From: a bacterium
GTDB lineage: Bacteria > SM23-81 > DAOVCL01
NCBI GenBank assembly: GCA_029932675.1
Contig: JAOZPP010000008.1
Span: 130-64,129, forward strand
Reading direction: 5' to 3'
DNA length: 64,000 bases
Made by a program: the position numbers and the translations under genes. This document shows positions 31,814 through 48,419 of this stretch, one piece after another (the first letter of the stretch is position 1; each line of letters starts with the position of its first letter). The notes under the pieces are model-generated. The model had not been told where the DNA came from. It ran no database searches and was given only the letters and a program-made list of their open reading frames with translations.

Positions 31814-32047
31814 ACTTCCTTAAATTTAATCTTGAATCACCCACTTGTCAACAATTTTTTGAGGACGCAGGTAACCCCATTTGGAAACTGCCTGGCTATT
31901 CCGGCCCAGCTCTTTACCGCTGGTTCCACCGGAGGTAACGGAATGCCCTCTTCGGCGGAGAGTCTCGTATGCTACTCTTTTACCCGGCTTCAGCCGGGCC
32001 CTTTGGGTTTCAACCCTGTGCGGGCAGCTACTCCGGTAGCAAAGAAG

Positions 32048-32082
32048 TTATGAGGAGGGCCTCAGGTGGGCCCTCCTCATAA
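32048..32082. terminator. Strong hairpin ending the secreted-protease operon
   Basis: ttatgaggagggcc...ggccctcctcataa; no clear U tract. Confidence 0.55.
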
Positions 32083-32092
32083 GGCTATGGCC

Positions 32093-35017
32093 TTATTTCA
32101 ATAAGACCATCTTCTTAATGGAGGAGAAATCACCCGCCCTCAGCCTACAGAAGTAGATACCCGAGGCCATACTATGAGCATTCCAGGTGATGGTCTTATA
32201 GCCAGGAGCCTGTTTCTCATCCACCAAGGTAGCTACCTTCTCCCCTAAGATGTTGTATACCTCCAAAAGAACGTGGATCGTGCTCGTAGCTCGTGAACCC
32301 TCTTCTGCCAGACCCTTAAGGTTAGTGTGGGAGGAGTGATCTCCGGGTAACGAGTAACGAATAACGGTAGTGGAGTTAAACGGGTTGGGGTAGTTCTGTT
32401 CCAGGGCAAACTCCTTGGGTAAATTGCTCTTCCCAGCTTTGACTACCCATTCCACAGATAGAGGTTGCACCTTAGACCCATATATCTCAACATTCTTCCA
32501 ACTCAGCCCCATATTACCCTTCTTCTTAACCTCAAAGGCTACCTTACCAATCCGATGTGTCCCAGGCTTCAGCAGCTTGGCCATCTCTATGTCTGGCACA
32601 GCCCCTATCCGCACTACTCCTGCTTGCCGAGTATCCACCGCCCAGAAGTCATACTCATCCCCACCTTCTACTTCCTTGAACAGCAGAGTGGTAGCGTCAT
32701 AGCCCAGGGAGATGTCCAACCCACATACCGACTCAGCTACCGTCAGATCAACAGGTACCTGCACCAATCCATCATTTATTACAGGATTCCCGGCTACCAA
32801 CTTGTCCATCGCACCCAACCTGCTTACTGAGGGTTTATAGGGCACAGTTTTGCCCCCCATGCAGAATCGATGCCAGATACAGTGCAAATTATCCTCAGTA
32901 GGGTCGATACCACAGTTCGGGTAGGGAGGTGGAGGGAGAATAGACTTTGGAACTCCAAAGATGAATTGTAACGCCATCAAAGGATCATTGGTCAGAATAC
33001 TACCGTCATCATCGTAATCGGCAGCGTCCTCACAGGAAGCAGGAAATGCCCCAGGAACTCCAAAGATCGACTGTAGCTCCATCAGGGGGTCCTGGGTCGA
33101 CACCACCCCATCGCTATTATAGTCCCCCCGGATGAACTGATTGCTCCCTCCCCATACGACGGTCATCGCAGGATCACCTAAAAGACAAAGCTGATAGTAA
33201 CACCATCTTATTGCTCCATATTCGTCTGATGAGACGTATGCTGCATTGTCCTCCTTGGAGTCATCAAAAGATAATCCCAAGGTGACCAAGCCTTCCCCGA
33301 AGATGGCATCGAAAAACTGCCTATCGAACAATTGATTGGGTCCACAAGTGTTATCCATATACCCCCAGCCAAAACGCGTATTGCCGATGAAGGCCACTGC
33401 TCCATAGGGGCCGGAAGTAAAATGTTCGGATATGGCATCAGTACCTGGGTGTACTCTCCCATCTCCATAAGGAGGGGGAGGTTCCCGGTTGTCGAAAGCG
33501 TTAGAATAGCAGCCCTGACAGTAGACGATATAATAGCCACCGCTAATCCCATCATTGGTTAACGCTGTATCGACATCATCATTTACCATCCTCATCGTAT
33601 AGGAGACATTGGAGTGGCCTAGGTGATTTACCAGGTTTACCCCTCCATTGAGTAAGGGAATGAGAGTATACTTATCCCACCGTTCTGGATCAAGGTCTCT
33701 GTCGTATAAGGTGGTCACTTGAAAGCGGTCCGGAAATCCGGCAGTGGTGAAGCCGCAGGTGCTACAGCTATCCTTCACCTCATCCTTATAATCTCCCCCC
33801 CATACTGTACTTCCTACTCCCAGGTACTCACCTACCATCAAGGCCCTGTTAACATCCCCCCACACCGGTTGTTGTTGATAGGAGATCACCTTGTGGATGA
33901 AATTGTCAGCCTCGGTTGTCGTATTAACGCAAGCCCGGCCAACCGATACCTCGGCAAAAAGGTCCACCTCCCCTCCATCAGGACCATCATTCGGCTCACC
34001 ATAAATATTGTTCTGGTTATAGTCGAATGTCCCATCTAAGCATCCGTAGTAGAGATCTGCTGGAATGTCATAGTCTGTCCATCCGGAAGCAGATCCATAG
34101 AAACCCTTATGAGGAATTAGATCATCATCACCGCCTAAAAGAACATAGCTTATCCCAAAGGTTTGGTAGTAAAGGGTGATCAGATTACGTATCAGCTCCG
34201 GCGTGGCCTCACCAGTTATGGTTCGGACAACAGCAGATAGCCCTCTCGAATTGTAGTAGTCTGCTAGACTCTGAAAACTGGGGACAAGATCATTGGTGGT
34301 GATGATAAGATAATCATAAGTTGTTTGAGAAGGTGGCAAAGACGCTGTCTGGGGATATCTCCGCAGAGCATGATAAGAGGCGATCTCCTGTGGGTTGTCC
34401 ACCAATCTCTTCACCCGTGCTTGGACGTTGGGAGAGTTCCTGATCATCCGCTCGCTCTCCGCCAGGGCCTTTGTTGATCTCCGGGTAGTTATCTTCAACT
34501 CCAATTGAGGGAAATATAAAAGTGTCCGATCTTTGGGCATATATACTACTGGATAGAGATTAATTAGGACAATTCGATAGCCACAGACTCTCTGGATGGA
34601 GACCAGATCATAAAGCTTAGCTGGATATTGATTGGGGGAAGCATAGATCTTCGGGTCTGGTGCCACTGGCTTCAATCGATACGGAAAGGATATGGGGATA
34701 ACAGGTTGCCCGGGTTTTATCAGGTAACCACTACCGAACCTCTCCATTTTGGGGTGGAAAACCTGCACAGAGTCAACATTGAAACCCGCCGGGAGCAGCA
34801 CCTTCACGCTTTTCACTGGTAGAACCGGTTTCCCCACCTGACCTAAAGAAGGCACTCCCTCGATGGAAACCTGATCATAAGACCCGATTCTTTGGATAGT
34901 GGGCGGAGGAAATCTAAAGCTTAACCTAATCGTCCTCGCAGATCCACTTACCTGGGAGGTTATAGTGAGGGAGAAAGGTATCAATAGGAACCCTAAGGCT
35001 ATCTTTCCTCTTTTCAT
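32093..35017 (-). CDS. Secreted gingipain-family (C25) cysteine peptidase with propeptide, dockerin-like and cohesin-like domains and C-terminal sorting (Por-tail/FlgD-like) domain
   Basis: Signal peptide; YVLLGGD, DLYY, VGR, NHLGHS and QGCYS catalytic His/Cys; FIRGDYNSDG...AADYDDDG; QNYPNPFN...KKMVLLK. Confidence 0.85.
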   Translation of the reverse strand: MKRGKIALGFLLIPFSLTITSQVSGSARTIRLSFRFPPPTIQRIGSYDQVSIEGVPSLGQVGKPVLPVKSVKVLLPAGFNVDSVQVFHPKMERFGSGYLIKPGQPVIPISFPYRLKPVAPDPKIYASPNQYPAKLYDLVSIQRVCGYRIVLINLYPVVYMPKDRTLLYFPQLELKITTRRSTKALAESERMIRNSPNVQARVKRLVDNPQEIASYHALRRYPQTASLPPSQTTYDYLIITTNDLVPSFQSLADYYNSRGLSAVVRTITGEATPELIRNLITLYYQTFGISYVLLGGDDDLIPHKGFYGSASGWTDYDIPADLYYGCLDGTFDYNQNNIYGEPNDGPDGGEVDLFAEVSVGRACVNTTTEADNFIHKVISYQQQPVWGDVNRALMVGEYLGVGSTVWGGDYKDEVKDSCSTCGFTTAGFPDRFQVTTLYDRDLDPERWDKYTLIPLLNGGVNLVNHLGHSNVSYTMRMVNDDVDTALTNDGISGGYYIVYCQGCYSNAFDNREPPPPYGDGRVHPGTDAISEHFTSGPYGAVAFIGNTRFGWGYMDNTCGPNQLFDRQFFDAIFGEGLVTLGLSFDDSKEDNAAYVSSDEYGAIRWCYYQLCLLGDPAMTVVWGGSNQFIRGDYNSDGVVSTQDPLMELQSIFGVPGAFPASCEDAADYDDDGSILTNDPLMALQFIFGVPKSILPPPPYPNCGIDPTEDNLHCIWHRFCMGGKTVPYKPSVSRLGAMDKLVAGNPVINDGLVQVPVDLTVAESVCGLDISLGYDATTLLFKEVEGGDEYDFWAVDTRQAGVVRIGAVPDIEMAKLLKPGTHRIGKVAFEVKKKGNMGLSWKNVEIYGSKVQPLSVEWVVKAGKSNLPKEFALEQNYPNPFNSTTVIRYSLPGDHSSHTNLKGLAEEGSRATSTIHVLLEVYNILGEKVATLVDEKQAPGYKTITWNAHSMASGIYFCRLRAGDFSSIKKMVLLK

Positions 35018-35026
35018 CGTTCCCTC

Positions 35027-38000
35027 CTATTTTAATAGAACTATTCTACGTGTGGCAGTATAGCCACCTGTCTGCAACCTCAGAAGATAAATACCCGAGG
35101 CCAGACCACTGGCATTCCAGGTAACACTCTTGTAACCAGGGGGTTGCTTCCCATTCACCAGGGTGGCCACTTTTTCCCCTAAGATGTTGTATATCTCCAA
35201 AAGAACGTGTATCCTGCTCGTAGCTCGTGAACGATCTACGGGTAACGAGTAACGAATAACGGTAGTTGCATTGAAGGGATTGGGATAGTTCTGGGAGAGG
35301 CTGAAGTATTGGGGAAGGTCCTCTGCCCGATTCTCGGATAGGCCTACTGGGATAAGCTGAAAGTCCACCACCGTAGTCTCTGCCTCAATACTCTCCACTC
35401 CTGGTTGAGCTAAGCTTCCATAGCCTTCCTTAGAGACTGAGACCTTGTAGGTGTCGGGGAGCACATAGGAGATGCTATAATAGCCATCTCCAGTAGTGGT
35501 ATCCTCACCTACTACCAGTGTGTCCTTCTCAATCTGCACCAATACACCTTGTAGGGGATTCTCATCGTTATCCTTTACCCAGCCGGCAATACAACTCCCA
35601 GGAGATTTAGCCCATACCGTGTCACTGCCCTGAAAGCTTCCTGCCCCTGTGACTGTGCCGCTAATGGTGGCAGAAGTACAGTGAAGGGGATCAATAACTC
35701 GCAGTGCAGTGAGTTGATCGAAGGTAACCATTAGATCCTCTTGCCCATCATTATCATAGTCGCCAACAACCCAGGGTTCTGGATAAGGTTGCATACTCTT
35801 ACCTCCGCATCCACGCAGGGTAACCTCCGTTATATCCTCCACGGGAATCCCATCTGAGAGTTCGATATAACATTCAACAGGAGGAAGATCAGGGACCAAA
35901 TCCAAAGTATCAGGAACGAATTGGACAACAACCTTTGCTGGACCTACCCTAAGGTGCAGGGGAATAGTGACCAGGGAATCCAAGGGATCGTTACTGGAGA
36001 CGAAAATGTTTGCATAGTAATCATCAGAGGGAAGATCAGTTACATTGAAGACCATTGCTACATCGACTCCATCCCCAGCCTGAATGGTGCCGGAAGCAGG
36101 GCCGTAATCACACCACCTCTTATCTACATGATATCGATAAATAGGTCCGTCCCAATCAGATACAAGAATATAATTGCCATCGTAGGTGATACCATCGTAG
36201 CAGGGTTGGTTGTGTATAGAGTTAAAGGAATTTATCTCCAGAGCACTGGTGAAGGATACATCCCACGAACGAGCAATCCTATCCGCTGATCCAATTGTCC
36301 ATAGGAGACCATATGCCCAGGTGGCACCGCTGACCGCATCTCCAATACTGGCATTTACAGTCCGGACAACTATCCCAGAAGTATCTACCTGGTATAATGT
36401 TGGGTTGTCAACCCAACTCGCCTCCGATAGCCATAAATAATTGCCATCCCAGGCAATGGCCGGTTGGGAGATTAAGGGAGCAGCAAATGAACCAATGTTA
36501 TTACCAGTGGTATCGTATTCGTAGATCGTTGAGCTATTACTCCCGATCCACAGATTGGTTCCATCGAAGGTTAAGCCATAGGGAGAACTATGAATGGCAT
36601 ATTGGGCTAATACATCCCCAGAGACAGAGTCCATTTTATAAAGGATTCCATCATCAAGGTCAACCCCCCAGAGATTGATGCCATCAAAGGTGAGCCCAGT
36701 GCATCCGGTAAATGGAAGCCTTAACCGACTCACTCTATTGCCAAAGTTTGCTAATAGATCATCCGTGAGGGTGTAGTGCAATGGTCCGGTCCCCCTATTG
36801 GTAATAGTGAGGGTATGAAATAAATCAATCTGTCCTGGGGACAAAGCTACATCAAAAGACGTTGGAGTAATTCCGATGTTAGGCGGAAAATTCCCTGAAC
36901 CTTTCATAAGAACCCAAATGAGGGGGTCATCTGGATCATTTGATGTAATGGATAAAACTCCAAACTGGTCACCTAAGCTGGTGGGAGCAAACACAACCGC
37001 CACCTCTTGAGTCATGCCTACATCCAAGGTGAAAACAGTGGGCTGGACGGTAAAATGCTCATTGCTACTGGCAATACCAGTAACATCCAATACAGTGGTG
37101 CCCACATTGTGTACCAGAAGCTTCAAGGTCTTTGGGAATCCAAGACTGGTTTCTCCGAAATCGAGCAGATCAGGTTGCACACCAATGACCGTTTTTTGGG
37201 GCACGATACCTGATGAAAGCTGTGCGTAAACACAGTCACCCTGGACGGTGGGGACCGGAGGATCATCTGATGTCACCGTATAGTAGGGTATTCTCGACCT
37301 ATAATTGCCATAGTATTCAATGGAAAACTTTTTGATCTCCCCGGTTGTGCTACTTCCGCGATCATAGGCCTCCAACCAGTAGTTAGAGGAGTCTCCATCA
37401 ATCAACTCGCTGATATCAAAGACGATGTCATTTGCAGGAAAAGGCCATGGACCGGCATTAGTATACTTGGGGTTGAATTCTTTCACCTGGTCAGGGTTAC
37501 CTAAGTCACCTGAACCGATCCTTATCAAACATCTATTTCTTTCGGGATAATCTATGTTAAAGACTGAAACAAGTGTGGGCTGATAGCCAATGCGATCGTA
37601 ATAATACATACAGTATTCAACCCTCTGCCTCATCGCTTCGTAGGACATCCACCAACATCCATCACTGTCCTCCTCTCCATTCCAGGTTGGCCCCCAGGAA
37701 TTGGCGATCTTGAATGCCCCATAACGAACCTCCCCCTCCTCTACATACGATTTGCTATCATCGAATCCCACCACCGTATTAAGATGGTTAAAAAGTGGGT
37801 TGACATAGTTATCCAATGTGGCCATCTCATGTAGCTGGTATCCATCAACACCTATTACTGGAAGGATGGTGGGCACAGATAGCAGCAAGTTCCTCAAATT
37901 CTGGATTGATGAACTCAGATCGATATACCTTATACCATCTGCCTCTGCCCGGTAAAGCGGAGCCTCCCTCCAGGCCGATTCTGAGGGCCAACTTGAGTGG

Positions 38001-38650
38001 TCATCGGGATCATTGGGCATCTCCTTCCAGGTGCAAGCACCAATTCTCTGGAGCACATCCCAGGCATCATCAGGGCTACTCCCGCAATTACATCCCCTAT
38101 TGATCTGGTGATAGATGAAAGCAGGACTGAATATCTTATCCTGATAAGCACTTGATGGATGGCCGTAATAAATCCCTCCTACCCAATCTGCTGCGGAAAG
38201 GTCCCAGTTGTGCTCCTCTGCCTCCTGAAATGTCTTCGCATAGTAAACTATAGCCCAACAGGTGCAAGAACCTTGCATACCCTGGCTACCAATGGGCGGG
38301 AAGAACTTGCTCTGGCTGTGATCTATATGGATAACTCCCTTGCGTTGCGGATCGGTGAGGATGATTTCATCTACCATCTTGGCCTCTTGGGCTATCTCTT
38401 CCCAGCCTTTTTCAGTGGGTGGCTGCAGACCTGTGCCGTGGCCATCAATTATCTCATTGTAATTCTTCCCTTCCTTGTAGGTGCCGAAGTGTTGCTTTAG
38501 CTTTTCCAACTCATCAGGCCTGATCTTATGGGATACCTCAATGAAGTTCCTCTTGGCCAGAACAGTTGAACCAAAGAGAAAACAACTCAAGTTGGCAACC
38601 ACAGCCAAACTTATTGCCAGTTTAAACCTAAACCCTTGTGGAATAGGCAT
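35027..38650 (-). CDS. Secreted papain-family (C1) cysteine peptidase with Ig-like, beta-propeller-like, carboxypeptidase-regulatory-like and C-terminal sorting domains
   Basis: QGMQGSCTCWA, NHLNTVVGFDD, IANSWG; SNDPD Ig-like repeats; GLTFDG.NLW repeats; QNYPNPFN tail. Confidence 0.85.
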   Translation of the reverse strand: MPIPQGFRFKLAISLAVVANLSCFLFGSTVLAKRNFIEVSHKIRPDELEKLKQHFGTYKEGKNYNEIIDGHGTGLQPPTEKGWEEIAQEAKMVDEIILTDPQRKGVIHIDHSQSKFFPPIGSQGMQGSCTCWAIVYYAKTFQEAEEHNWDLSAADWVGGIYYGHPSSAYQDKIFSPAFIYHQINRGCNCGSSPDDAWDVLQRIGACTWKEMPNDPDDHSSWPSESAWREAPLYRAEADGIRYIDLSSSIQNLRNLLLSVPTILPVIGVDGYQLHEMATLDNYVNPLFNHLNTVVGFDDSKSYVEEGEVRYGAFKIANSWGPTWNGEEDSDGCWWMSYEAMRQRVEYCMYYYDRIGYQPTLVSVFNIDYPERNRCLIRIGSGDLGNPDQVKEFNPKYTNAGPWPFPANDIVFDISELIDGDSSNYWLEAYDRGSSTTGEIKKFSIEYYGNYRSRIPYYTVTSDDPPVPTVQGDCVYAQLSSGIVPQKTVIGVQPDLLDFGETSLGFPKTLKLLVHNVGTTVLDVTGIASSNEHFTVQPTVFTLDVGMTQEVAVVFAPTSLGDQFGVLSITSNDPDDPLIWVLMKGSGNFPPNIGITPTSFDVALSPGQIDLFHTLTITNRGTGPLHYTLTDDLLANFGNRVSRLRLPFTGCTGLTFDGINLWGVDLDDGILYKMDSVSGDVLAQYAIHSSPYGLTFDGTNLWIGSNSSTIYEYDTTGNNIGSFAAPLISQPAIAWDGNYLWLSEASWVDNPTLYQVDTSGIVVRTVNASIGDAVSGATWAYGLLWTIGSADRIARSWDVSFTSALEINSFNSIHNQPCYDGITYDGNYILVSDWDGPIYRYHVDKRWCDYGPASGTIQAGDGVDVAMVFNVTDLPSDDYYANIFVSSNDPLDSLVTIPLHLRVGPAKVVVQFVPDTLDLVPDLPPVECYIELSDGIPVEDITEVTLRGCGGKSMQPYPEPWVVGDYDNDGQEDLMVTFDQLTALRVIDPLHCTSATISGTVTGAGSFQGSDTVWAKSPGSCIAGWVKDNDENPLQGVLVQIEKDTLVVGEDTTTGDGYYSISYVLPDTYKVSVSKEGYGSLAQPGVESIEAETTVVDFQLIPVGLSENRAEDLPQYFSLSQNYPNPFNATTVIRYSLPVDRSRATSRIHVLLEIYNILGEKVATLVNGKQPPGYKSVTWNASGLASGIYLLRLQTGGYTATRRIVLLK

Positions 38651-38737
38651 CTTAAATCACTCCTTTGTTATTCTTTGATTGACTGTGGGGATGTTAGGAA
38701 ATGCTGAAAATTCCGGTTGTAATTCCTCCTCTCCTTT

Positions 38738-38836
38738 TTAAGCAAAAAAGGCCCTCCATCTTGCCCATGGGACAAAAAGAGAGCCTTTAAAGGTTTTTCA
38801 TTCTACCTCACCCCCTTAAAGATCAAAGGGATTTTT
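38738..38836 (-). promoter_or_regulatory. Leader/attenuator copy A (SD hairpin, uORF MKNL 38787-38801, terminator)
   Basis: Near-identical to 42054-42152; hairpin followed by U6. Confidence 0.7.
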
Positions 38837-38930
38837 TTCCTTTTACACCTATGGTGGTGCAACAAAAAATATGGAATAGGCAGCTATAGGCATTAGCTGA
38901 CGAAAGGAAATTCCATAAGTCAACCACTTA

Positions 38931-38954
38931 CGCAACCTGAAAGGTTGCGGCTAC
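38931..38954 (-). repeat. GTAG-type REP-like palindrome
   Basis: Minus strand gtagc-cgcaacct-ttc-aggttgcg; related copy at 61016-61037. Confidence 0.45.
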
Positions 38955-38988
38955 CCTATTTTGCGACTTTTGCCTAATTATCACCTAT

Positions 38989-39355
38989 CACTACTGTCCG
39001 GTTATTAGTTGAATAATGACAATTGCTTATAGCATTCGCCCTTCAGCTCTTTGCGAGCGAAATCCGTAAGCACCTGTAAGATAGGCGATTTTTCGAAAAC
39101 GGTGACGCTCAGACTCTGTAGAATTGTGTAGAGACTGAGGTCCAGATGAGCCCGTTTCTTAACAATGGCGACGAGGACAAACACTGAGATGGCAGTCCAT
39201 ATTGGAGTCTTCACGGCATTTTCGGATGCGCCGTAGAAAGTGGAATGACCATAGTATACAAAGGATTTGAAATCGATAACAGTTATTTTCGCTCGCAACT
39301 CAATTTCATCAATGCAGTTACAACAAAGTCAAGAGCAAACAATCGGACAGTAGTG
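38989..39355 (-). mobile_element. Internally deleted IS4-family element (367 bp) retaining the transposase C-terminus
   Basis: TIRs cactactgtccggtt / aatcggacagtagtg; 9-bp direct repeat atcacctat at 38980-38988 and 39356-39364; FYGASENAVKTPIW..ISVFVLVAIVKK...LYTILQ resembles the IS4 transposase C-terminus. Confidence 0.88.
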
Positions 39356-39368
39356 ATCACCTATATAT

Positions 39369-39397
39369 AATTTACTCCTTTGGCCTGTGGATGTCAA
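39369..39397 (-). promoter_or_regulatory. sigma70-type promoter for the C1/C25 operon
   Basis: TTGACA-17 nt-TAAATT. Confidence 0.55.
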
Positions 39398-39454
39398 GGG
39401 TTTTTTCGGCCCCTCGAAAGGGAGGGCCCTTTTGGACCCTCCCCTTATCGGGCC

Positions 39455-41740: not shown

Positions 41741-42053
41741 TTTCCCCTCCTTACACTAAAACACCTAAAGGTGATCAATCAGGTTTGATCCCCTTTGCAA
41801 CAAGAGCCAGTTGAACTATCTAAAATCCGTCCCCCCTTTCCTCAACTTGATTTGGCTCTCAAATCTTAGCTTGAAGGGGAGTAATCTTTCCTTGGTTACC
41901 TGGTGGCAAAGCAATAGACAAACTTGCTGATATTGCTAATTTCGTGGCAGAACAGGGGCTCTGCCAGTTCACTTTCGGTAATATGATTATTCCTAACATC
42001 CAGGGTGAGTGCAGATTAGACTGAACCGTCGAAAATTTATGAACAATTCGGGT

Positions 42054-42152
42054 TTAAGCAAAAAAAAGCCCTCCATCTTGCCCATAGGGCAAAAAGAGAG
42101 CCTTAAAGGTTTTCCATTCTACATCACCCCCTTAAAGTTCAAAGGGATTTTT
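42054..42152 (-). promoter_or_regulatory. Leader/attenuator copy B (uORF MENL 42103-42117)
   Basis: Near-identical to 38738-38836; terminator with U8; TTGACA-17-TAGTAT promoter at 42195-42167. Confidence 0.7.
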
Positions 42153-42254
42153 TCGACTCCGATTATATACTACTACTTCGGGCGATGAATGTCAAGGGTT
42201 TTTAGAACCCCCTGGGAAGAGGGAGGGTTCAAGAGAACCCTCCCTCATTTGACT

Positions 42255-45200
42255 TTATTTCAACAGGATCATCTTTTTGACGGCGGTAAACTCCCCGGCT
42301 TTGAGCCTATAGAAGTAGATACCAGAGGCTATACTATGAGCATTCCAAGTGATGGTCTTATAGCCAGGGGTCTGTTTACCATCCACCAGGATGGCTACTT
42401 TCTGTCCCAAGACGTTGTAGACCTCCAGGCTAACCGCTGATCGTTGATCGCTGACCGCTGGAATAGTGTAACGAATCACAGTGGTTGCATTGAAGGGATT
42501 AGGATAGTTCTGGGAGAGGCTGAACTTCTCCGGAAGCCTCTCGTTGGAGGGGGTTTCTTCCGCTTTTACTCCTGTCCAGGGGGTGACCTCGAAATCGTCA
42601 ATAAACCAACCGCCATAGGTGACATAGCCGTCTGACCCAAATCGGAAACGAAACCTTACCGTCCCCGAATAACCGGAGAGATCGAATTCGACTTTGGACC
42701 AGTCAGATTGGCCAGAGAAACAGGGGGTACCAGGATTGAAGGGGCTTGCTGGGTTGTCTATGATCAAGTATGGATAGCCGCCGATTGGGGTTATCTGCTG
42801 CCAACCGCTTCCACTGTCTATCTCCACGATGCCACCGTCCCAGGCCCAGGTAGCATCCTCTGTCTCAGCGCTGATCCAGTGCCAGAAGGAGAGTTTTGCG
42901 TTCTGGCCCAGCCTCACCTCTGGGGAGACAAGTCCCGCATCATCAAGGTTGGAATAGCTGCTTGAGACCTTGCCGCACTTCCAACTATATCGTCCTCCAG
43001 AGGTATGGTTTCTCTCGGTGCTCAAGTGCCATTCGTCCTTGTAACCTGGGGTGACTGAGTAGTGCATCCAATCCTCCCTCCACCAATCTTCCATAGGGTC
43101 TACATAGCCTGTGCTATCCCCTACAGAGGTATTGAAGCTGGCAGACCCCTTAAATCCCCTTTCTCCTCGGATCTCCAGATCAAAAACGACTATATACGGG
43201 TCGATTGAACAGCCGGGTGCGACAGAGAATTCAAAGGGGAAGGTGGGGGAGACCGTACTGTCGGGAAGGGCATTGGGATAACCTGCGCTATCCACCAAGA
43301 TATTCACCCAGGAGGCACTAGTGGAAATCCTTGCCCAAAGGGAGGTCAGATCTGCCGTTCCCTGGTTGAGAAGCTCGATGTAAAGCTGCACAGTATCCCC
43401 TGGATCGGCGTTTCCATCTCCATTCCCGGAAGCGGTATCCACAATACTATAGGAATTAAAAACCAGATCGGGGGCCTTTGTGAGCAGCTCTATAATCTGG
43501 TGGCGTTGGAAACCTCCGCTGGCCGTAACATCCACCCTCAGATTGGCTCTATGCTCAGGCGGAGAGGTACCGGCGAGGGAAAGAGCAAAGGGTTGGAGGC
43601 TCGGGACCCTTGACCAGGGAGAGGCATCTGGGAAGTTGACATTCTCAGTCAAGATGTTTACCAGCGTATCTTCAGTAGAGAGGGTGGCTGATATTTGGGT
43701 GAGGCTCTGACTGCTCATATTCTCCAGAACCACCTCCATCTCTATTGTCTCCCCGGCCTCGAATTCCCCATCCCCGTCCCCATCGCTTTGCCCTGCTTGG
43801 TCATCATCAATTGTTTGGGAAAGAAAATAGAGCCCATCAGCCTTTCTGCACAGCCCAGGCTCCCCATATAGGGTGAACTCATAAACGTTTTGGAGTTCCG
43901 TATCCCCGAAATGATCAATGTAGTTGAGCTTGGCACTCATCAGGGCATCCCCTACTTTTTCCGAATTGTTAATTAGGTGGTGATAGAACCAGTAGTCCAA
44001 GGAATTGCAGCCTCCATCGTTTTCATCGTCCCAACCCCAGGCTCCAAAGGCGACCCTGGTGGCGACCACAATTCCTGCAGAGCCATTTTTCAAAAGCTCC
44101 TTGCCGATGTTGTCCTCCTCAGGCACCCCGTTAGAGCAGGAAGAGCCAAAGATGATAGACGGGTAGCTGTCATCGAGAAGGGGAACCTGATCCGTGGAGA
44201 TGAAGGGAGTACCGTGAAACTCAGGAGGATCACAGGTATCCTCAGGCACTCCATCGCCGTCGTCCCAGCTCCAAATCCTCCGGTAGGAACCATACCAGTT
44301 GCCATGGCCAGACCAGTTGCAGATCCCATAATGGCCTGAATTCCAATAGGAGACCACATTCGAGGTGCAGAGGGAGTCCTCATGGGGATAGGATGAAGGG
44401 TCAAGGCCGGCATCCTCGTAGAGGCGGGTATAGCTTGAGGTTGGGGGAAGGATATCGGCTATCATCTTCTCCATCAGACAAGCCCCATCGGTTTTTAGGC
44501 TTCCCCCTCCGTTCTCATTCCCATACCAGGTTATCGCCGCCAAAAGCAGAGCGTCATCCTTCCAATCCCCTCCATCTGATTCAAACCTCACCAGCTTCTC
44601 ACAGATTGTCTGCACTGTGGCCGGATCGCCCCAAGGGATTCTCCCCGGTGTTATCTCCGGGATTAAGTCGAAATCGTCCTCCCCGACCTCACCATAGTAG
44701 CCATCACCATCTGAATCCCAGTCCCCAGTTAGGTCGGCGTAGTAGTAGTCAGTCCAGGGGGAATACCAGCCAGCGGAATCATGCTCAGAGGGATAGGGGA
44801 AGCATTGCCGCATAGGGACATCCGTGATGTCTCCCACAAACAGCACCCACCTTATCCCCCACTGGGATTGGGGATACTTGTCGATGAGGAAGTTTCTTAT
44901 CCTCTCGGCCAGGTCCTCCCCGGTGTAATGGGCAGAGATCCAGGAAGTGGTAACGACCTCCACCCCATAGCCTATACCCTCTTTCCAGGCAACGAGGGTG
45001 TCCACCGCGCTCTCCAGGGCGTCAGTGGTGACTATCACATACTCGTAGGTGCTTTTGGAATCCCCCATGGAAGGAGGATACCAACTTTTGATCTGGGGGT
45101 AATTGACAAACAGTTTGGAGGCCAGTTCTTCAGCCAGGATATCGGAGGCTAACCTTTTGGCCTCCTTCTCCTGCTGGCTGCCCTTTGAGGGAAGGGAATA

Positions 45201-45746
45201 GTTTACCGAAACAACTAAGGAGCTCCGGTAGGTGAGCCTTCCTGATCTGGGGAAATAGGAGAAGGGATAAAAGGCAACCCTCACCAAGGGATATCTCCTT
45301 AGTGCCCCAAAGCCGAGGTACTTACCCCCCTGGGAAGGATAGGCTGCATTAGATTCATAGGTCTCTTCATAGTTAGTGCGGTACTCCTGGAGAGCCCTCT
45401 TTATGAGAGCGGGAATAGGATCCATCGGGAGCATAGGCGGAGCCGGCCTGATCCTATATTTTCCTGCTAAATCCAAGGGGCTCCCCTCACCGATCTCCAC
45501 TGAAGAGACCTCTGCTCCCGGGGGTAGGGCAATGGTAAAGACCTTCATCGGCAATTTAGGTTTACCGGAAATCAGGAGGCTGCCGAACTCCTCCATCACT
45601 ATCTCATCATATCCCTCAACATCCTTGAGGATCTCGTAAGGGTTAGCCCTCAAGGTCACCTTTAGGTTCTCAGCTCTTGCACCCCTCCCTAAGAGGGACA
45701 AGAGCAAAGCCAACGCTGCGGTAAAGCCCAATCTCGGTGAGATCAT
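42255..45746 (-). CDS. Secreted C25 cysteine peptidase with propeptide, Ig-like domains, InhA/adhesin-like beta-sandwich and C-terminal sorting domain
   Basis: VLFVGD, DYYYADL, PGRIP, NWSGHG, SSCSNG; LSFWHW...DGGIVE...FRFRFGSD...GWFIDD; QNYPNPFN tail. Confidence 0.85.
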   Translation of the reverse strand: MISPRLGFTAALALLLSLLGRGARAENLKVTLRANPYEILKDVEGYDEIVMEEFGSLLISGKPKLPMKVFTIALPPGAEVSSVEIGEGSPLDLAGKYRIRPAPPMLPMDPIPALIKRALQEYRTNYEETYESNAAYPSQGGKYLGFGALRRYPLVRVAFYPFSYFPRSGRLTYRSSLVVSVNYSLPSKGSQQEKEAKRLASDILAEELASKLFVNYPQIKSWYPPSMGDSKSTYEYVIVTTDALESAVDTLVAWKEGIGYGVEVVTTSWISAHYTGEDLAERIRNFLIDKYPQSQWGIRWVLFVGDITDVPMRQCFPYPSEHDSAGWYSPWTDYYYADLTGDWDSDGDGYYGEVGEDDFDLIPEITPGRIPWGDPATVQTICEKLVRFESDGGDWKDDALLLAAITWYGNENGGGSLKTDGACLMEKMIADILPPTSSYTRLYEDAGLDPSSYPHEDSLCTSNVVSYWNSGHYGICNWSGHGNWYGSYRRIWSWDDGDGVPEDTCDPPEFHGTPFISTDQVPLLDDSYPSIIFGSSCSNGVPEEDNIGKELLKNGSAGIVVATRVAFGAWGWDDENDGGCNSLDYWFYHHLINNSEKVGDALMSAKLNYIDHFGDTELQNVYEFTLYGEPGLCRKADGLYFLSQTIDDDQAGQSDGDGDGEFEAGETIEMEVVLENMSSQSLTQISATLSTEDTLVNILTENVNFPDASPWSRVPSLQPFALSLAGTSPPEHRANLRVDVTASGGFQRHQIIELLTKAPDLVFNSYSIVDTASGNGDGNADPGDTVQLYIELLNQGTADLTSLWARISTSASWVNILVDSAGYPNALPDSTVSPTFPFEFSVAPGCSIDPYIVVFDLEIRGERGFKGSASFNTSVGDSTGYVDPMEDWWREDWMHYSVTPGYKDEWHLSTERNHTSGGRYSWKCGKVSSSYSNLDDAGLVSPEVRLGQNAKLSFWHWISAETEDATWAWDGGIVEIDSGSGWQQITPIGGYPYLIIDNPASPFNPGTPCFSGQSDWSKVEFDLSGYSGTVRFRFRFGSDGYVTYGGWFIDDFEVTPWTGVKAEETPSNERLPEKFSLSQNYPNPFNATTVIRYTIPAVSDQRSAVSLEVYNVLGQKVAILVDGKQTPGYKTITWNAHSIASGIYFYRLKAGEFTAVKKMILLK

Positions 45747-45800
45747 AGTTTCTCCTTGTTTTAATTTCGAAGTAAAAAAGTGGATATAAAACAGGCATTT

Positions 45801-48113
45801 CTATTTGAGCAAGATCATCTTCCTGACGGAGGTAAACCCCCCGGCCTTAAGCCTGGAGAAGTAGATACCGGAGGCCATCCCTGCGGCATCCCAGGTAACC
45901 ATCTTGTACCCAGGGGTTTGCTTCTCATCCACCAGAGTGGCCACCCTCTGCCCTAAGATGTTGTATACCTCCAAACGGACGTGTATCGTGCTCGTGGCTC
46001 GTGCTCGTGAACCCCCCTCTGCCAGACCCTTGAGGTTAGTGGGGGAGGAACGATCTCCGGGTAACGAGTAACGAATAACGGTAGTGGAGTTAAACGGGTT
46101 GGGGTAGTTCTGGAAAAGCCCAAACTTAGTGGGAAGATCTAAGGAGGACCCCCCTTCGGTTACGCCCACGCCAATGGTCACTGGCTTTAATTGGCTGAAA
46201 TCCCCCCAGCTATGGGCCTGGTTGTGTCCCCTAACGCGATAGTAGTAGGTGGCATCAGGTCTACCCTCTACCTGGTAGAAGGTATCTGTGAGGGCAGCAG
46301 AGAGGGTATCGATCTTGCTGAAGTAGGGCACAGGATGGATATCGTCCACATAGAAGCCTTCGTTTTGGGTGGCGTCGTCGGTTATATATCTAAATTGCAA
46401 AAATATGGATCCCCCTGCGAACCCCTCTAAGCTATAGGACTTCCTCATCCAGCTCTTTTGTTCCCCCGTAAACTGGTCTAAGATATACCACTGCCTCCCT
46501 TGAGGGGAAACCTCTACATACGCATAATCCCATCCCTCTTCTATGTCATACCAGCACCAGAAACTCAGGGAGTCGCCGGAGGAGACAGGAAGGGGATACT
46601 TGGTGGTCATGGTGGTCACATCGTTTCCCGATTGGGTGGTGGAATAATAGCTGTGGGTTGAGCTATGGTATCTGGAAGTGTTCACCGAAAAGCCACCCAT
46701 CTCCCAGAGGGAGTTGGTCCATCCTTCACCCTCATCTGTGGGCAAATAGAGGCCGGAGAGCTCATCAAGCTCGTATCGATCCGGCTGAGCAGCAGGGTTC
46801 TGGGGTGCCCACCTGATGGTGTAGGACCCAGCGGAGATACTATCCGGGGTAGCCACAACCGGGGGCATGACCCTGGGGGTTAAGAGGCCAGCCACGCTGT
46901 CGGCTACATCACAGAGGTAGAGGGCACCATTGAGGTTCTCCCTCTCCACCTGGTTTAAGACCGACTCTGAGGGATGAAAATCACTGCAGGCCTCAACCGT
47001 ATAGGGCAATGAATTCCCCCCGGCCACAAAGAGCATAAATCCATATACCCAATCATCTGTGTCTCCAGTAGTGGGATACATCCCTGGGCCAGCAGATTGG
47101 AAGGCATCATAGGTGCCGCTTCCTCCTTGTCTGGTAATGCGCGCAGCCATCTCTTGACCTATGCCAGAGATGAGCTCGTTGTCTGGAACCTGCACCCCGA
47201 TGTGATAACCCCAGGGCCACATCACACATTCCGAATAAGTGTGATAGGAAACGGTAAAGACGAAGTTGTGGACCGCTACCAGGTCCCTCACTGCTTGGGT
47301 CTCCTCTTCGGAAAAGGGGGAGGGACCATCATAAAGTGAGTAGCTTGGCCAATGGGTGGTGGCCCATCCTGGTATGCAACCCCACTCCCCTCTCCGGTCC
47401 CCGTTGCAACTGCCATCATAGTTCCTGTTCAGATCAACCCCATAAGTGTTGAACTCTGGGAAGTACCTCCGATTCTTCCTCCAATCATGTCCCAGGTCAT
47501 GGCAGTAATGGTAGCCATCGGGGTTGACACAGGGGATGATCCAGATCTCCCTTTGGTTCACCACCTCCGTGATGTGAGGATCTGAACCATAGCCCCTCAC
47601 TAAGGTGTCGGCAAAGAATAGGGGTATCTCCAAGGCAGGCCATTCCCGGGCATGGTGGAGGCCCATAAAGAGGAGCTCGGCCTCCCCTTCCTCGGCCCCT
47701 ACGTTGTCGGAGATCTTTAAGGCCAGAATCTCCCTCCCCTCATAGGTCCATCCCAGGGTGTCTAAGGAGACGATCTCCGGATGATCTATGGCTAGGGCCC
47801 GCAAGCTATCCACTACCTGCTGGTAGGTATGATATTCTCCCTTCACCTGGCGTTCATACCTTTCAATGTCCGGGATACGCACTTGGACCTTCCACCCAAG
47901 GCTTTTCAACTTGAGCAAACCCTCATCCGTGGTGACCAAATCGAACCATTCACCCCTCTTGAATCCAGCAATATCCAAGCCCTTGAATAGGGGGGGAGCC
48001 TTGGTCAAATCGGTTGTGTAGACCCTCACCAATAGCTTGGTCCCACCAGCCACCTGAGGTGCTAACAGCATCCCTCCCACCAATACAGCCAAGAAAAATA
48101 TCCTCCTCCTCAT
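45801..48113 (-). CDS. Secreted M14 zinc carboxypeptidase (carboxypeptidase T-like) with beta-sandwich, FN3-like and C-terminal sorting domains
   Basis: HHAREW, NPDG, WRKNR, DLNRN, HTYSE; start at MRRRIFF. Confidence 0.9.
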   Translation of the reverse strand: MRRRIFFLAVLVGGMLLAPQVAGGTKLLVRVYTTDLTKAPPLFKGLDIAGFKRGEWFDLVTTDEGLLKLKSLGWKVQVRIPDIERYERQVKGEYHTYQQVVDSLRALAIDHPEIVSLDTLGWTYEGREILALKISDNVGAEEGEAELLFMGLHHAREWPALEIPLFFADTLVRGYGSDPHITEVVNQREIWIIPCVNPDGYHYCHDLGHDWRKNRRYFPEFNTYGVDLNRNYDGSCNGDRRGEWGCIPGWATTHWPSYSLYDGPSPFSEEETQAVRDLVAVHNFVFTVSYHTYSECVMWPWGYHIGVQVPDNELISGIGQEMAARITRQGGSGTYDAFQSAGPGMYPTTGDTDDWVYGFMLFVAGGNSLPYTVEACSDFHPSESVLNQVERENLNGALYLCDVADSVAGLLTPRVMPPVVATPDSISAGSYTIRWAPQNPAAQPDRYELDELSGLYLPTDEGEGWTNSLWEMGGFSVNTSRYHSSTHSYYSTTQSGNDVTTMTTKYPLPVSSGDSLSFWCWYDIEEGWDYAYVEVSPQGRQWYILDQFTGEQKSWMRKSYSLEGFAGGSIFLQFRYITDDATQNEGFYVDDIHPVPYFSKIDTLSAALTDTFYQVEGRPDATYYYRVRGHNQAHSWGDFSQLKPVTIGVGVTEGGSSLDLPTKFGLFQNYPNPFNSTTVIRYSLPGDRSSPTNLKGLAEGGSRARATSTIHVRLEVYNILGQRVATLVDEKQTPGYKMVTWDAAGMASGIYFSRLKAGGFTSVRKMILLK

Positions 48114-48419
48114 CTCCCTTTCCAGGCTAAATGTTGATAACCCGTTCACCGATCTACAGTCCTTCTCAAATCGCCAAGGATCCTTTCGGAACCTTGGAGG
48201 ATCTGAAGGGGCTCTCTGGGTAAAGCCCCTCCATAGATCAATTTACCAACTTCATCGGTTTAAGTCTTTTTTTTTCAGCCCTTTTCCGATCTTACCCTAA
48301 ATTTAACTAAATTTAAGCCAATAAGCAAGCGATTTCTACATTTTCAGTGGCCAAGTAGCTAACCCAACTTTTCCCATTAGGACTTTTCAACCCTTCCCGC
48401 CTCGGCCTTTGCCTGAGGA

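What the first reader, a model, noticed from the sequence alone, without database searches (positions are those of the whole stretch)
32093..48149. Candidate cellulosome-like multi-protease complex
Seen: five tandem same-strand secreted proteins (C25, C1, non-catalytic, C25, M14), all with the same C-terminal sorting-type domain. Two carry a duplicated Ca-loop dockerin-like module (about 32860-33136 and 40360-40633) followed by a cohesin-like sandwich. Known: cohesin-dockerin pairs assemble cellulosomes, and Por-tail domains route proteins to the T9SS in Bacteroidetes. Inference: endo- and exopeptidases assembled on the cell surface into a proteolytic complex. Only one of the four peptidases has an evident dockerin, and no secretion machinery is in the window.
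Basis: partly seen in the sequence, partly recalled or inferred. Interest (0 to 1): 0.75.

Follow-up and report, generated by a model that had tools for sequence, protein, structure and literature searches.

The report
Secreted peptidase cluster with dockerin-cohesin tails
An uncultured bacterium encodes five neighbouring exported proteins, four of them protein-cutting enzymes, and two of the five end in a genuine dockerin-plus-cohesin "plug and socket" tail that is common in this group of bacteria, so a small surface assembly is plausible but a five-enzyme cellulosome-like machine is not supported.

Summary
Five minus-strand genes encode a C25, a divergent C1-like protein, a non-catalytic protein, a second C25 and an M14. 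All five end in a T9SS type A sorting domain.

The module pairs are real. The two-loop module matches solved dockerins by profile (E 1.2e-5). The sandwich after it models as a cohesin in both proteins (Z 14.5). The non-catalytic protein has a second cohesin fold before its dockerin (Z 13.9).

- Only 2 of the 5 proteins carry these modules. The M14, the C1-like protein and the second C25 carry none.
- The sorting tail sits on 146 ORFs of this genome, so it does not mark a complex.
- PorU and SprA are present elsewhere in the genome.
- The dockerin-cohesin-CTD tail is a general cargo tail. Peptidases are 7 of 38 foreign tail-bearers and 2 of 7 in this genome.
- Binding was never tested, because the complex-prediction job never ran.

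A cellulosome-like peptidase complex on a CTD-bearing scaffoldin was already proposed for Cloacimonadota (PMC8542988). Notes from this scan record a Zixibacteria-like set of dockerin-tagged peptidases on other DNA (e1-2101763).

Verdict: a new variant of a known kind, of moderate interest.

The parts
45801..48149 (-). P0005. Signal peptide (by eye; the real start is probably the Met 12 codons in), M14 carboxypeptidase (aa 114-407, nt 46929-47810), InhA-like MAM domain (aa 489-604) and T9SS CTD (nt 45804-46124). No dockerin or cohesin.
   Evidence: HHAREW and SYHTYSE zinc-ligand-like motifs and TVEA were located by script; their meaning is recalled from carboxypeptidase A.
42255..45746 (-). P0004. 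C25 propeptide, gingipain-like C25 peptidase (aa 236-631, nt 43854-45041), two unassigned repeats, a MAM-like domain and T9SS CTD (nt 42258-42524). No dockerin or cohesin.
   Evidence: It is not PorU (47.4 bits against a cut-off of 420). A profile of four C25 domains hits gingipain R 1cvr_A at E 1.8e-15, with the GHG histidine aligned.
39455..41740 (-). P0002, non-catalytic. Signal peptide, unknown N-domain (aa 28-207, nt 41120-41659), cohesin fold 1 (aa 207-369, nt 40634-41122), dockerin (aa 368-463, nt 40352-40639; first Ca loop degenerate), cohesin fold 2 (aa 487-651, nt 39788-40282) and T9SS CTD (nt 39458-39772).
   Evidence: AF2 model, mean pLDDT 59.9. VIA-align gives Z 14.5 (rmsd 2.5 over 140 aa, 5nrk_A) for aa 487-645 and Z 13.9 (rmsd 3.0 over 135 aa, 4uyp_A) for aa 209-369. 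hhalign of the domain-1 family against the tail cohesin gives probability 84.6%, against 0.1% for the controls. The ESM Atlas lead also points to cohesin.
35027..38650 (-). P0003. Signal peptide, divergent C1/papain-like domain (aa 40-480, nt 37211-38533), HYDIN-type Ig domain, a propeller-like repeat region, CarboxypepD_reg domain and T9SS CTD (nt 35030-35305). No dockerin or cohesin.
   Evidence: The Cys, His and Asn motifs were seen by eye and in local BLASTP matches to a C1 relative.
32093..35017 (-). P0001. C25 propeptide, gingipain-like C25 peptidase (aa 236-619), dockerin (aa 626-725, nt 32843-33142), cohesin (aa 733-871, nt 32405-32821) and T9SS CTD (nt 32096-32392).
   Evidence: It is not PorU (39.2 bits against 420).
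41741..42254 (-). Intergenic region upstream of P0002. It holds a palindromic hairpin just after the P0004 stop (42219-42246), a promoter-like site (42195-42167) and a shared ~100-nt leader element (42056-42153).
   Evidence: These are consensus matches and a repeat only; no function has been shown.
38651..39454 (-). Intergenic region upstream of P0003. It holds a promoter-like site (39397-39369), an inserted 371-nt element with terminal inverted repeats (38988-39358) and the same shared leader element (38740-38845).

Best explanation
This is a lineage-variable locus of probably three transcription units. It equips an uncultured FCB-group bacterium with T9SS-exported enzymes for digesting external protein: two gingipain-like C25 endopeptidases, one divergent papain-like C1 peptidase and one M14 carboxypeptidase.

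Two of the five products end in a modular tail of dockerin, a Cys-rich linker, cohesin and the T9SS sorting domain. These are the C25 enzyme P0001 and the non-catalytic P0002. The tail is a general C-terminal cassette of T9SS cargo in this and neighbouring candidate phyla. It places one plug and one socket next to the point where the cargo is handed to the outer membrane.

Most likely the tails make Ca-dependent cohesin-dockerin contacts in trans between tail-bearing surface proteins, of which this genome has about seven. P0002, with two cohesins and one half-degenerate dockerin, would act as a small adaptor that can hold P0001 or another tailed protein. The M14, the C1-like enzyme and the second C25 act beside this assembly as ordinary T9SS cargo, not as docked subunits.

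Shown here: gene anatomy, domain families, cohesin folds, dockerin homology, presence of a T9SS in the genome, and the distribution of the tail.

Inferred: export and surface retention, Ca dependence, binding at all, trans rather than cis binding, and a nutritional role.
For: ANATOMY.

COHESIN.
- The AF2 model of P0001 aa 622-875 has mean pLDDT 72.3, and 77-91 over the sandwich.
- All 39 Foldseek rows shown are cohesins or cohesin-containing scaffoldin fragments, the best E 5.8e-10.
- VIA-align gives Z 14.5; 49 of the 50 entries shown are cohesins.
- 13 of 18 aligned tail proteins match Pfam Cohesin at E<=0.01, the best 3.4e-12.

DOCKERIN.
- A profile of 23 modules matches solved structures. 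The 8 chains at E<=0.002 are six cellulosomal dockerins and two chains named 'Serine protease'. The alignments shown for the two best chains (2y3n_B, 4uyp_B) cover both Ca loops, and the table ranges for the others span the same profile positions 3-60.
- Both loops of P0001 fit DxDxDGxxxxxD by eye.
- More distant tails reach Pfam Dockerin_1 (2 of 18; 8 of 23 at E<=1).

P0002. It has two cohesin folds and a domain-1 family related to cohesin.

EVIDENCE FOR TRANS USE. Some relatives have unpaired modules.
- Extra cohesins occur in P0002 and in P0158, P0159, P0215, P0217 and P0292.
- 19 of 65 full-tail representatives lack long cargo and carry more than one module. The four scanned with Pfam (P0164, P0168, P0177, P0205) are dockerin/cohesin repeat proteins ending in a lone dockerin; they showed only Dockerin_1 and EF-hand matches and no sorting tail.

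LINK TO PEPTIDASES.
- The one close relative of P0002 (P0006) shares a 6183-bp longest-contig length with a C1-plus-tail protein (P0027). This suggests, but does not prove, that they are neighbours.
- Related clusters combine M14, C25 and tailed C1 genes (L010; L034).

T9SS.
Against: - No binding test of any kind was obtained.
- Every tail has exactly one dockerin and one cohesin joined by a conserved linker, which fits an intramolecular clasp equally well.
- The dockerin part of the P0001 model is of low confidence (pLDDT 48-77).
- Neither the dockerin nor the cohesin of P0001 reaches its Pfam gathering score (15.5 against 22.9; 21.2 against 24.1).
- P0002's second cohesin is so diverged that the tail-cohesin profile misses it (hhalign probability only 14.8%). 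Its first Ca loop is degenerate. It may therefore be a decaying copy rather than an adaptor.
- A mirror-tree comparison of 41 tails was uninformative (dockerin-cohesin rho 0.49, cohesin-CTD 0.67).
- Three of the four peptidases have no module at all.
- No expression data exist.
Confidence: 0.5

Rival explanations
1. Intramolecular clasp. The dockerin of each tail binds the cohesin of the same chain. This forms a rigid, Ca-stabilised stalk or folding unit between the cargo and the sorting domain. There is no inter-protein assembly, and the cluster is simply a set of independent secreted peptidases.
For: - There is one dockerin and one cohesin per tail, always in the same order, joined by a conserved linker of about 45 residues with four invariant Cys.
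- The tail travels as a unit on very different cargo.
- The pTM of 0.69 for the two-module model is higher than the roughly 0.59 that the cohesin alone could contribute by its share of the length. This is my inference, and no PAE or coordinates were available.
- In P0002 the dockerin and the cohesin that follows it have both diverged.
Against: - Proteins with unpaired modules exist and need partners in trans. Examples are P0002 with its extra cohesin, and relatives made of dockerin-cohesin repeats that end in a lone dockerin.
- In textbook scaffoldins, a cohesin and a dockerin in one chain have different specificities (recalled).
Confidence: 0.22
2. All five products, endo- and exopeptidases together, are assembled by cohesin-dockerin pairs into one cellulosome-like proteolytic complex on the cell surface.
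For: - The modules are real cohesins and dockerins.
- A non-catalytic two-cohesin protein lies inside the cluster.
- M14, C25 and C1 genes recur together in related genomes.
- A comparable model has been published for Cloacimonadota (PMC8542988, passages read).
Against: - The M14, the C1-like protein and the second C25 carry no dockerin or cohesin by any profile used.
- The M14 lacks the tail in 3 of 3 related clusters.
- There are only three cohesins and two dockerins in the window.
- The shared sorting tail is the genome's general export tag.
Confidence: 0.08
3. The cohesin and dockerin modules no longer pair with each other. They serve instead as spacers, as binders of another ligand such as glycan or substrate protein, or as elements that help T9SS passage, much as the Ig-like domain does that precedes the CTD in known cargo.
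For: - The tail always lies directly before the CTD. 35 of 38 foreign cargo-bearing tail proteins show a Por_Secre_tail or FlgD_ig match.
- A beta-sandwich before the CTD is usual in T9SS cargo (recalled).
- Neither module of P0001 reaches its Pfam threshold.
Against: - Both Ca loops and both helices are strongly conserved across phyla. D11, D22, D46, D49 and D57 are invariant in 23 sequences.
- That level of conservation argues for a maintained binding function of the dockerin type.
Confidence: 0.12

Closest known systems
Putative cellulosome-like complex of Candidatus Stygibacter (Cloacimonadota), Williams et al. 2021, PMC8542988 (abstract and passages read)
   Same: It is an uncultured FCB-group bacterium. 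It has secreted enzymes, including a gingipain-like C25 and an S8 peptidase, that carry dockerins. Its cohesin-bearing non-catalytic protein ends in a T9SS CTD. The inference there is surface degradation of polypeptides.
   Different: There, the enzymes carry a C-terminal dockerin only, and a single 3755-aa scaffoldin carries tandem cohesins and CBMs. Here, dockerin and cohesin sit together in one tail before the CTD, the largest cohesin-bearer has two cohesins, and most peptidases of the cluster have no module.
Clostridial cellulosome type I cohesin-dockerin pairs (for example PDB 1ohz, 6kgc, 5nrk, 4uyp)
   Same: The cohesin fold matches (Z 13-14.5). The dockerin has a duplicated Ca loop plus helix that aligns over both repeats.
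   Different: - The host is Gram-negative and export is by T9SS rather than Sec with SLH or sortase anchoring.
- The cargo is peptidases and adhesin-like domains, not glycoside hydrolases.
- The dockerin has an added PPxPPYPxCGxDPTxDxLxC...C extension with four invariant Cys.
- One cohesin and one dockerin occur per chain.
- Sequence identity to solved cohesins is 9-23%.
Non-cellulosomal cohesin/dockerin proteins of archaea (Archaeoglobus fulgidus cohesin 2xdh; ANME proteins, PMC9012536, passages read)
   Same: Cohesin and dockerin occur outside cellulose degradation, sometimes in the same protein, with no large scaffoldin. 2xdh is among the best structural matches (Z 13.2 and 12.9).
   Different: Those are archaeal, S-layer or membrane-linked, with no T9SS tail. 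That the A. fulgidus modules bind each other is cited there from papers I could not read (Haimovitz 2008; Peer 2009 is not held).
Gingipains and other T9SS type A cargo of Porphyromonas gingivalis (recalled; profile hits to 1cvr_A, 4ief and 5mun)
   Same: The layout is C25 propeptide, then C25 catalytic domain, then C-terminal sorting domain. A PorU sortase and a SprA translocon are present in the genome.
   Different: Sequence similarity is low: phmmer of P0001 alone finds no solved chain. Adhesin/haemagglutinin domains are replaced by the dockerin-cohesin tail (P0001) or by MAM-like domains (P0004). Anchoring chemistry in this lineage is unknown.

Membership tests
Cohesin (PF00963) | Nine-stranded jelly-roll beta-sandwich of the cohesin type | tested here: met
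   P0001 aa 733-871: Foldseek best E 5.8e-10, and all 39 rows shown are cohesins. VIA Z 14.5, rmsd 2.5 over 130 aa. P0002 aa 487-651 gives Z 14.5 and aa 207-369 gives Z 13.9. These are models, not structures.
Cohesin (PF00963) | Pfam gathering score (24.1 bits) | tested here: not met
   P0001 scores 18.4 bits as the whole protein and 21.2 bits as the excised tail. P0002 has no match. However, 13 of 18 aligned tail homologues match at E<=0.01, the best 3.4e-12, which links the tail to the family by transitivity.
Cohesin (PF00963) | Binds a cognate dockerin | not tested
   The complex-prediction job never ran.
Dockerin (PF00404) | Tandem duplicated segment, each an EF-hand-like Ca loop followed by a helix | tested here: met
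   P0001 has GDYNSDGVVSTQD and ADYDDDGSILTND, followed by helices at model residues 21-30 and 56-65. The DNA repeat D7 marks the duplication. P0002's loop 2 is intact and its loop 1 is degenerate (by eye), with helices at 383-395 and 418-427 at pLDDT 73-90.
Dockerin (PF00404) | Sequence membership | tested here: inconclusive
   Pfam gives 15.5 bits against a cut-off of 22.9 for P0001. The 23-sequence profile hits solved dockerins at E 1.2e-5 to 2e-3; the alignments shown for the two best chains cover both repeats. 8 of 23 members match Dockerin_1 at E<=1.
Dockerin (PF00404) | Ca-dependent fold and cohesin binding | not testable with these tools
   This needs ITC or native PAGE with and without EDTA.
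Cellulosome-like multi-enzyme complex | Each enzyme subunit carries a dockerin | tested here: not met
   Only 1 of 4 peptidases in the cluster (P0001) has one. Genome-wide dockerin profiles found no module in P0003, P0004 or P0005.
Cellulosome-like multi-enzyme complex | Non-catalytic scaffoldin with several cohesins | tested here: inconclusive
   P0002 is non-catalytic and has two cohesin folds. No ORF with more cohesins was found in the genome by Pfam Cohesin or by the tail profile. Diverged cohesins can escape both profiles, as P0002's did.
Cellulosome-like multi-enzyme complex | Anchoring of the complex to the cell surface | tested here: inconclusive
   A T9SS CTD is present on all five proteins, and PorU and SprA are in the genome. 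Whether cargo is retained or released in this lineage is unknown.
T9SS type A cargo | C-terminal TIGR04183 / Por_Secre_tail domain together with a T9SS in the genome | tested here: met
   TIGR04183 scores 27.2-44.6 bits against a cut-off of 23 on all five proteins. PorU scores 750 bits and SprA 758.7 bits. The PorV model matches only below its cut-off.
PorU sortase (NF033707) | Equivalog score of 420 bits | tested here: not met
   P0004 scores 47.4 bits and P0001 39.2 bits. The real PorU is on contig C55.
Peptidase C25 (gingipain family) | Pfam domain and catalytic His/Cys | tested here: met
   Pfam E 2.3e-47 and 1.7e-41. The profile hits gingipain R at E 1.8e-15 with GHG aligned to chain position 211 of 1cvr_A. 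That this His is catalytic, and the identity of the Cys seen by eye (C-Y-S-N and C-S-N-G), are recalled.
Peptidase C1 (papain family) | Pfam gathering score and the Cys-His-Asn triad | tested here: inconclusive
   P0003 scores 17.3 bits against 20.7, and phmmer finds no papain-family chain in the PDB. Some of its 483-member family carry PF00112 or C1A names. The QGSCTCW, NHLNTVVGFD and ANSWG motifs were seen by eye.
Peptidase M14 | Pfam domain and zinc-ligand motifs | tested here: met
   E 1.5e-58 over profile positions 3-285 of 286. HHAREW, SYHTYSE and TVEA are present; their meaning is recalled.

The most novel reading that the evidence does not exclude
The dockerin-linker-cohesin-CTD tail is a self-complementary 'hook-and-loop' unit. 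After T9SS export, tail-bearing cargo binds neighbouring tails head-to-tail, helped by small adaptors such as P0002 and, in relatives, by proteins made of dockerin-cohesin repeats. This builds a Ca-dependent protein lattice on the outer membrane that carries peptidases, adhesin-like domains and beta-helix proteins. It would be a general and undescribed way of organising the T9SS surface coat in uncultured FCB-group phyla.
Probability: 0.22. Interest if true: 0.75.

Novelty: new variant of a known kind. Interest (0 to 1): 0.45.

Why it matters
Cohesin-dockerin pairing is the textbook way in which Gram-positive cellulose degraders build multi-enzyme machines. How T9SS bacteria arrange the dozens to hundreds of proteins they export onto their surface is poorly understood outside Porphyromonas and Flavobacterium.

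A tail holding both a plug and a socket directly before the sorting signal occurs on many unrelated cargo proteins. A profile of the tail finds 326 representative clusters at E<=1e-30 and 26392 at E<=0.001; at the weaker threshold most are probably dockerin alone. Such a tail would be a simple, testable mechanism for lateral organisation of that coat, and a source of new orthogonal cohesin-dockerin pairs for protein engineering.

For this locus the practical message is more modest. It is a protein-foraging gene set of an uncultured bacterium, and at most two of its five products can dock.

Tried and rejected
1. COMPLEX PREDICTION. The job was tail cohesin plus dockerin plus 2 Ca, and it never ran. 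The job was not sent on. The tool gave no usable answer. This says nothing about binding.

2. PORU HYPOTHESIS. I considered that the C25 proteins might be PorU sortases. Rejected: 47 and 39 bits against a cut-off of 420, and the real PorU lies on C55.

3. SHARED CTD AS A MARK OF A COMPLEX. Rejected: 146 ORFs carry it.

4. TAIL SPECIFIC TO PEPTIDASES. Rejected: 7 of 38 abroad and 2 of 7 in this genome. The cargo of the other three Pfam-blank tail proteins resembles beta-helix or Ig-type proteins, not peptidases.

5. SEQUENCE SEARCHES AGAINST SOLVED STRUCTURES.
- Alignment A1 against the PDB was swamped by the C1 columns of full-length rows.
- phmmer of P0003 found only HYDIN-type Ig domains.
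- phmmer of the P0001 C25 region found nothing at E<=0.001.

6. TAIL-COHESIN PROFILE. It missed both P0002 cohesins. hhalign of P0002's second cohesin against the tail cohesin gave only 14.8%. The fold search was needed to find them.

7. P0002 N-DOMAIN (aa 28-207). It is unmodelled (pLDDT below 50). The Atlas gave only unnamed clusters and a lectin-like lead at 0.89. One relative exists, P0174. Its function is open.

8. MIRROR-TREE COVARIATION. Comparison of dockerin, linker, cohesin and CTD identities in 41 tails was uninformative.

9. RFAM. Nothing was found over 31500-48600 at E<=1 except a tRNA and three below-threshold chance-level hits.

10. EXPRESSION. No RNA holder is listed. The four listed runs are DNA runs of one study, and one of them is possibly the source of this DNA.

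11. SYNTENY. The neighbours NFACT and TilS lie on other contigs in the sister genome G002 than its tail/peptidase cluster. The locus position is therefore not shown to be conserved. Contig breaks limit this.

12. DOCKERIN FOLD BY STRUCTURE SEARCH. It was not tested. The VIA rows cover only model residues 112-250.

13. LITERATURE.
- Five full-text searches found no paper describing a dockerin-cohesin-CTD tail.
- 'Zixibacteria' with 'dockerin' returned 0 papers.
- The library lacks most subscription journals.
- Peer et al. 2009 is not held.
- Supplementary tables of PMC8542988 and PMC9012536 were not opened and may list similar architectures.

Full report
WHAT IS THERE

Between a tRNA gene plus tilS on one side and an NFACT-family gene on the other lie five minus-strand ORFs. 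In order of transcription they are:
- P0005 (45801-48149): M14 carboxypeptidase plus a MAM-like domain.
- P0004 (42255-45746): C25 propeptide, C25 peptidase and a MAM-like domain.
- P0002 (39455-41740): no catalytic domain.
- P0003 (35027-38650): a weak C1 match, a HYDIN-type Ig domain and a CarboxypepD_reg domain.
- P0001 (32093-35017): C25 propeptide and C25 peptidase.

All five begin with a signal-peptide-like N-terminus (by eye). All five end in a type A T9SS sorting domain.

The gene spacings suggest three transcription units:
- 54 nt between P0005 and P0004.
- 513 nt before P0002.
- 803 nt before P0003.
- 9 nt between P0003 and P0001.

The promoter- and terminator-like sites in those gaps are consensus matches only.

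ARE THE FOUR ENZYMES REAL?

- The M14 and both C25 matches are strong (E 1.5e-58, 1.7e-41 and 2.3e-47).
- A profile of four C25 domains reaches gingipain R (1cvr_A, E 1.8e-15), two gingipain prodomains and PorU. The GHG histidine aligns.
- The two C25 proteins are not the T9SS sortase (47 and 39 bits against a cut-off of 420). The true PorU is on contig C55.
- P0003 is below the Pfam C1 threshold. Even so, its first 440 residues belong to a large family: 483 relatives at 45-60% identity, from bacteria and archaea. Some of these carry PF00112 or are named C1A peptidases by their sources. Papain-like Cys, His and Asn motifs are visible by eye.

I accept P0003 as a divergent papain-like peptidase, with less certainty than the other three.

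THE MODULES

Dockerin. They belong to a module of about 98 residues with this layout: F-x-R-G-D, Ca loop, helix, a Cys, a D-A-A-D-Y-D-D-D-G loop, helix, then a proline-rich extension with three more invariant Cys.
- A profile of 23 such modules finds solved dockerins. Six of the eight chains at E<=0.002 are cellulosomal dockerins, the best 2y3n_B at 1.2e-5. The alignments shown for the two best chains cover both repeats.
- The P0001 module alone stays under the Pfam threshold (15.5 against 22.9 bits).

Cohesin in P0001. The sandwich after the dockerin is weak in Pfam (21.2 against 24.1 bits), but:
- 13 of 18 aligned homologues match Cohesin, the best at 3.4e-12.
- The AF2 model matches only cohesins in Foldseek (39 of 39 rows shown, best E 5.8e-10).
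- VIA-align gives Z 14.5, and 49 of the 50 entries shown are cohesins.

Cohesins in P0002. The full-length model is mediocre overall (pLDDT 59.9). It is usable over three parts:
- aa 211-366 (pLDDT 42-80).
- aa 371-430 (pLDDT 73-90).
- aa 491-605 (pLDDT 66-88).

It contains two cohesin folds, at aa 487-651 (Z 14.5) and aa 207-369 (Z 13.9). The first of these domains has its own small family, which hhalign relates to the tail cohesin at 84.6% probability, against 0.1% for controls.

P0002 therefore reads: unknown N-domain, cohesin, dockerin with one degenerate loop, cohesin, CTD.

WHAT THE SURROUNDINGS AND RELATIVES SAY

1. The sorting tail is not special to the cluster. 146 of 4587 ORFs of at least 90 aa carry it. 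PorU and SprA are present, along with PorV-like barrels that score below the model's cut-off.

2. The dockerin occurs in seven ORFs of the genome.
- In P0001, L001 and L004 it is followed by a closely similar cohesin and then the CTD. L002 shows the same dockerin and cohesin up to the end of its contig.
- L003 breaks off at its contig end just after the dockerin.
- P0002 carries a diverged version.
- L005, a third C25 protein, has the dockerin directly after the catalytic domain.
- Only P0001 and L005 are peptidases. The others carry LTD/GEVED, beta-helix-like or Ig-like cargo.

3. Outside the genome, the tail recurs with 40-70% identity on C1, C25 and unrelated cargo.
- A profile search of 1.84 billion representatives gives 326 hits at E<=1e-30 and 26392 at E<=0.001.
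- Of the best 150, 65 have dockerin and cohesin in one stretch.
- Of those 65, 40 have at least 250 residues of cargo, 19 carry several modules without long cargo, and 6 are short.
- Of the 38 foreign cargo-bearers, 7 are peptidases: three C25, two C1, one S8 and one C10/C39-like. 35 of the 38 show a T9SS-type C-terminal domain.
- The four multi-module proteins I scanned (P0164, P0168, P0177, P0205) match Pfam Dockerin_1 strongly (E 1e-12 to 1e-27) and show no sorting tail.

4. The nearest named records are a Candidatus Zixiibacteriota MAG, then records labelled Gemmatimonadota and Eisenbacteria. The dockerin alone also appears in records labelled Planctomycetota and Myxococcales.
- The genome's own phylum holds only 7 species genomes in the held set. 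3 of the 7 have the tail, and all three belong to one genus.

5. Related clusters have the same flavour.
- L010 encodes a MAM protein, a C25, an M14, a C1 with the tail, and another C1.
- L034 encodes an M14, a C1 with the tail, an FG-GAP protein with the tail, two DUF1670 genes, a C1 with the tail, and a CarboxypepD_reg protein with an extra cohesin and the tail.
- L012 and L034 show identical ORF lengths and may be the same DNA, so I count them once.
- The M14 has no tail in 3 of 3 clusters.
- The locus position is not shown to be conserved.

HOW IT MOST LIKELY WORKS

Shown: the anatomy, the module families, and the presence of a T9SS.

Inferred: the five proteins are exported by Sec and then by the T9SS. 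They digest external protein, with endopeptidases (C25 twice, and C1) feeding a carboxypeptidase (M14).

The dockerin-cohesin tail sits directly before the sorting domain, and so ends up next to the membrane attachment or release point. Two observations make contacts in trans between tailed proteins the more economical reading:
- Some relatives carry unpaired modules: an extra cohesin in P0002 and several relatives, and lone terminal dockerins in repeat proteins.
- The dockerin helices and Ca ligands are conserved across phyla.

On that reading P0002 is a small adaptor.

The equally simple alternative is that each tail closes on itself. I could not test this, because model coordinates and PAE are not available and the complex job never ran.

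I rate it low.

COMPARISON AND NOVELTY

- Non-cellulosomal cohesins and dockerins are long known (cited in PMC9012536, passages read).
- A cellulosome-like complex carrying C25 and S8 peptidases on a CTD-bearing scaffoldin has been proposed for Cloacimonadota (PMC8542988, passages read).
- Notes of this scan, unchecked by me, record a Zixibacteria-like genome with eleven dockerin-tagged secreted proteins beside a cohesin anchor (e1-2101763). They also mention a Dockerin-Cohesin-Por_Secre_tail tail on Bacteroidota giant proteins (e1-5699598).
- What I did not find in five literature searches is a description of the dockerin-linker-cohesin-CTD tail as a recurrent unit, or of its Cys-rich dockerin subtype.

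This is therefore a new variant of a known kind, of moderate interest.

Noticed in passing
window 38740-38845 and 42056-42153 (minus strand): The long gaps upstream of P0003 and of P0002 share an element of about 100 nt at 92% identity. It ends in a stem followed by a T-run, like a terminator. In both gaps a similar TTGACA-17-TAxxxT promoter-like site precedes it. There are only two full copies in the genome, and partial matches to its hairpin end occur on C102 and C93. It may be a common leader or attenuator for two of the three transcription units. Rfam has no match.
   Followed up: partly
window 38988-39358: A 371-nt element with terminal inverted repeats (CACTACTGTCCG / CGGACAGTAGTG) is inserted between the promoter-like site and the shared leader upstream of P0003. 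A 97.8% identical copy lies on contig C16. It looks like a recently active MITE-like element, and may relate to the repeats noted earlier in this genome (e1-923534, e1-923539). That link was not checked.
   Followed up: partly
window 32096-32392, 39458-39772 and 45804-46124: Three of the five sorting domains (P0001, P0002, P0005) carry an insertion of 15-20 residues (..SS.T.LKGLAEEGSRATS..) in the middle of the CTD. P0003 and P0004 lack it. The best non-cluster match to this long form is another C25 protein, on C75.
   Followed up: no
window 37211-38533 (P0003 aa 40-480): This divergent C1-like domain belongs to a large family found in bacteria and in archaea; sources name Asgard, Bathyarchaeota, Thermoplasmata and Methanofastidiosa. 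Of the 119 other proteins listed, 15 carry a precomputed Pfam dockerin and 2 a cohesin. Dockerin-tagged papain-like peptidases therefore seem common in uncultured lineages.
   Followed up: no
proteins P0164, P0168, P0177, P0205 (representative library): These proteins of 630-910 aa are built of alternating dockerin and cohesin modules and end in a lone dockerin. Pfam at E<=1e-5 shows only Dockerin_1 and EF-hand matches, with no catalytic domain and no sorting tail. They are candidate soluble linkers for tail-bearing surface proteins. None was found in the window's genome.
   Followed up: partly
genome contigs C75, C30, C27, C98 (two places), C104 and C81: The gingipain-like C25 family is expanded. 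Besides the two window genes and PorU, at least seven further places match the catalytic part of the PorU/C25 model or Pfam C25.
   Followed up: no
window 31740-31813 and 34001-40000: A tRNA gene lies about 280 nt downstream of the cluster's last gene. G+C falls to 0.46-0.48 across 34-40 kb, against 0.53-0.55 in the flanks. Together with the lack of shown synteny in the sister genome, this hints at a flexible or acquired region.
   Followed up: partly
L034 10600-12317 (G002:C9): Two adjacent DUF1670 genes interrupt the sister genome's tail/peptidase cluster.
   Followed up: no
window 39761-41659 (P0002 aa 28-207): The N-terminal domain of P0002 has no Pfam match and no confident model. It has one detectable relative, P0174, which shares the whole P0002 architecture. 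A lectin-like lead from the Atlas at 0.89 is below the tool's own trust level.
   Followed up: partly
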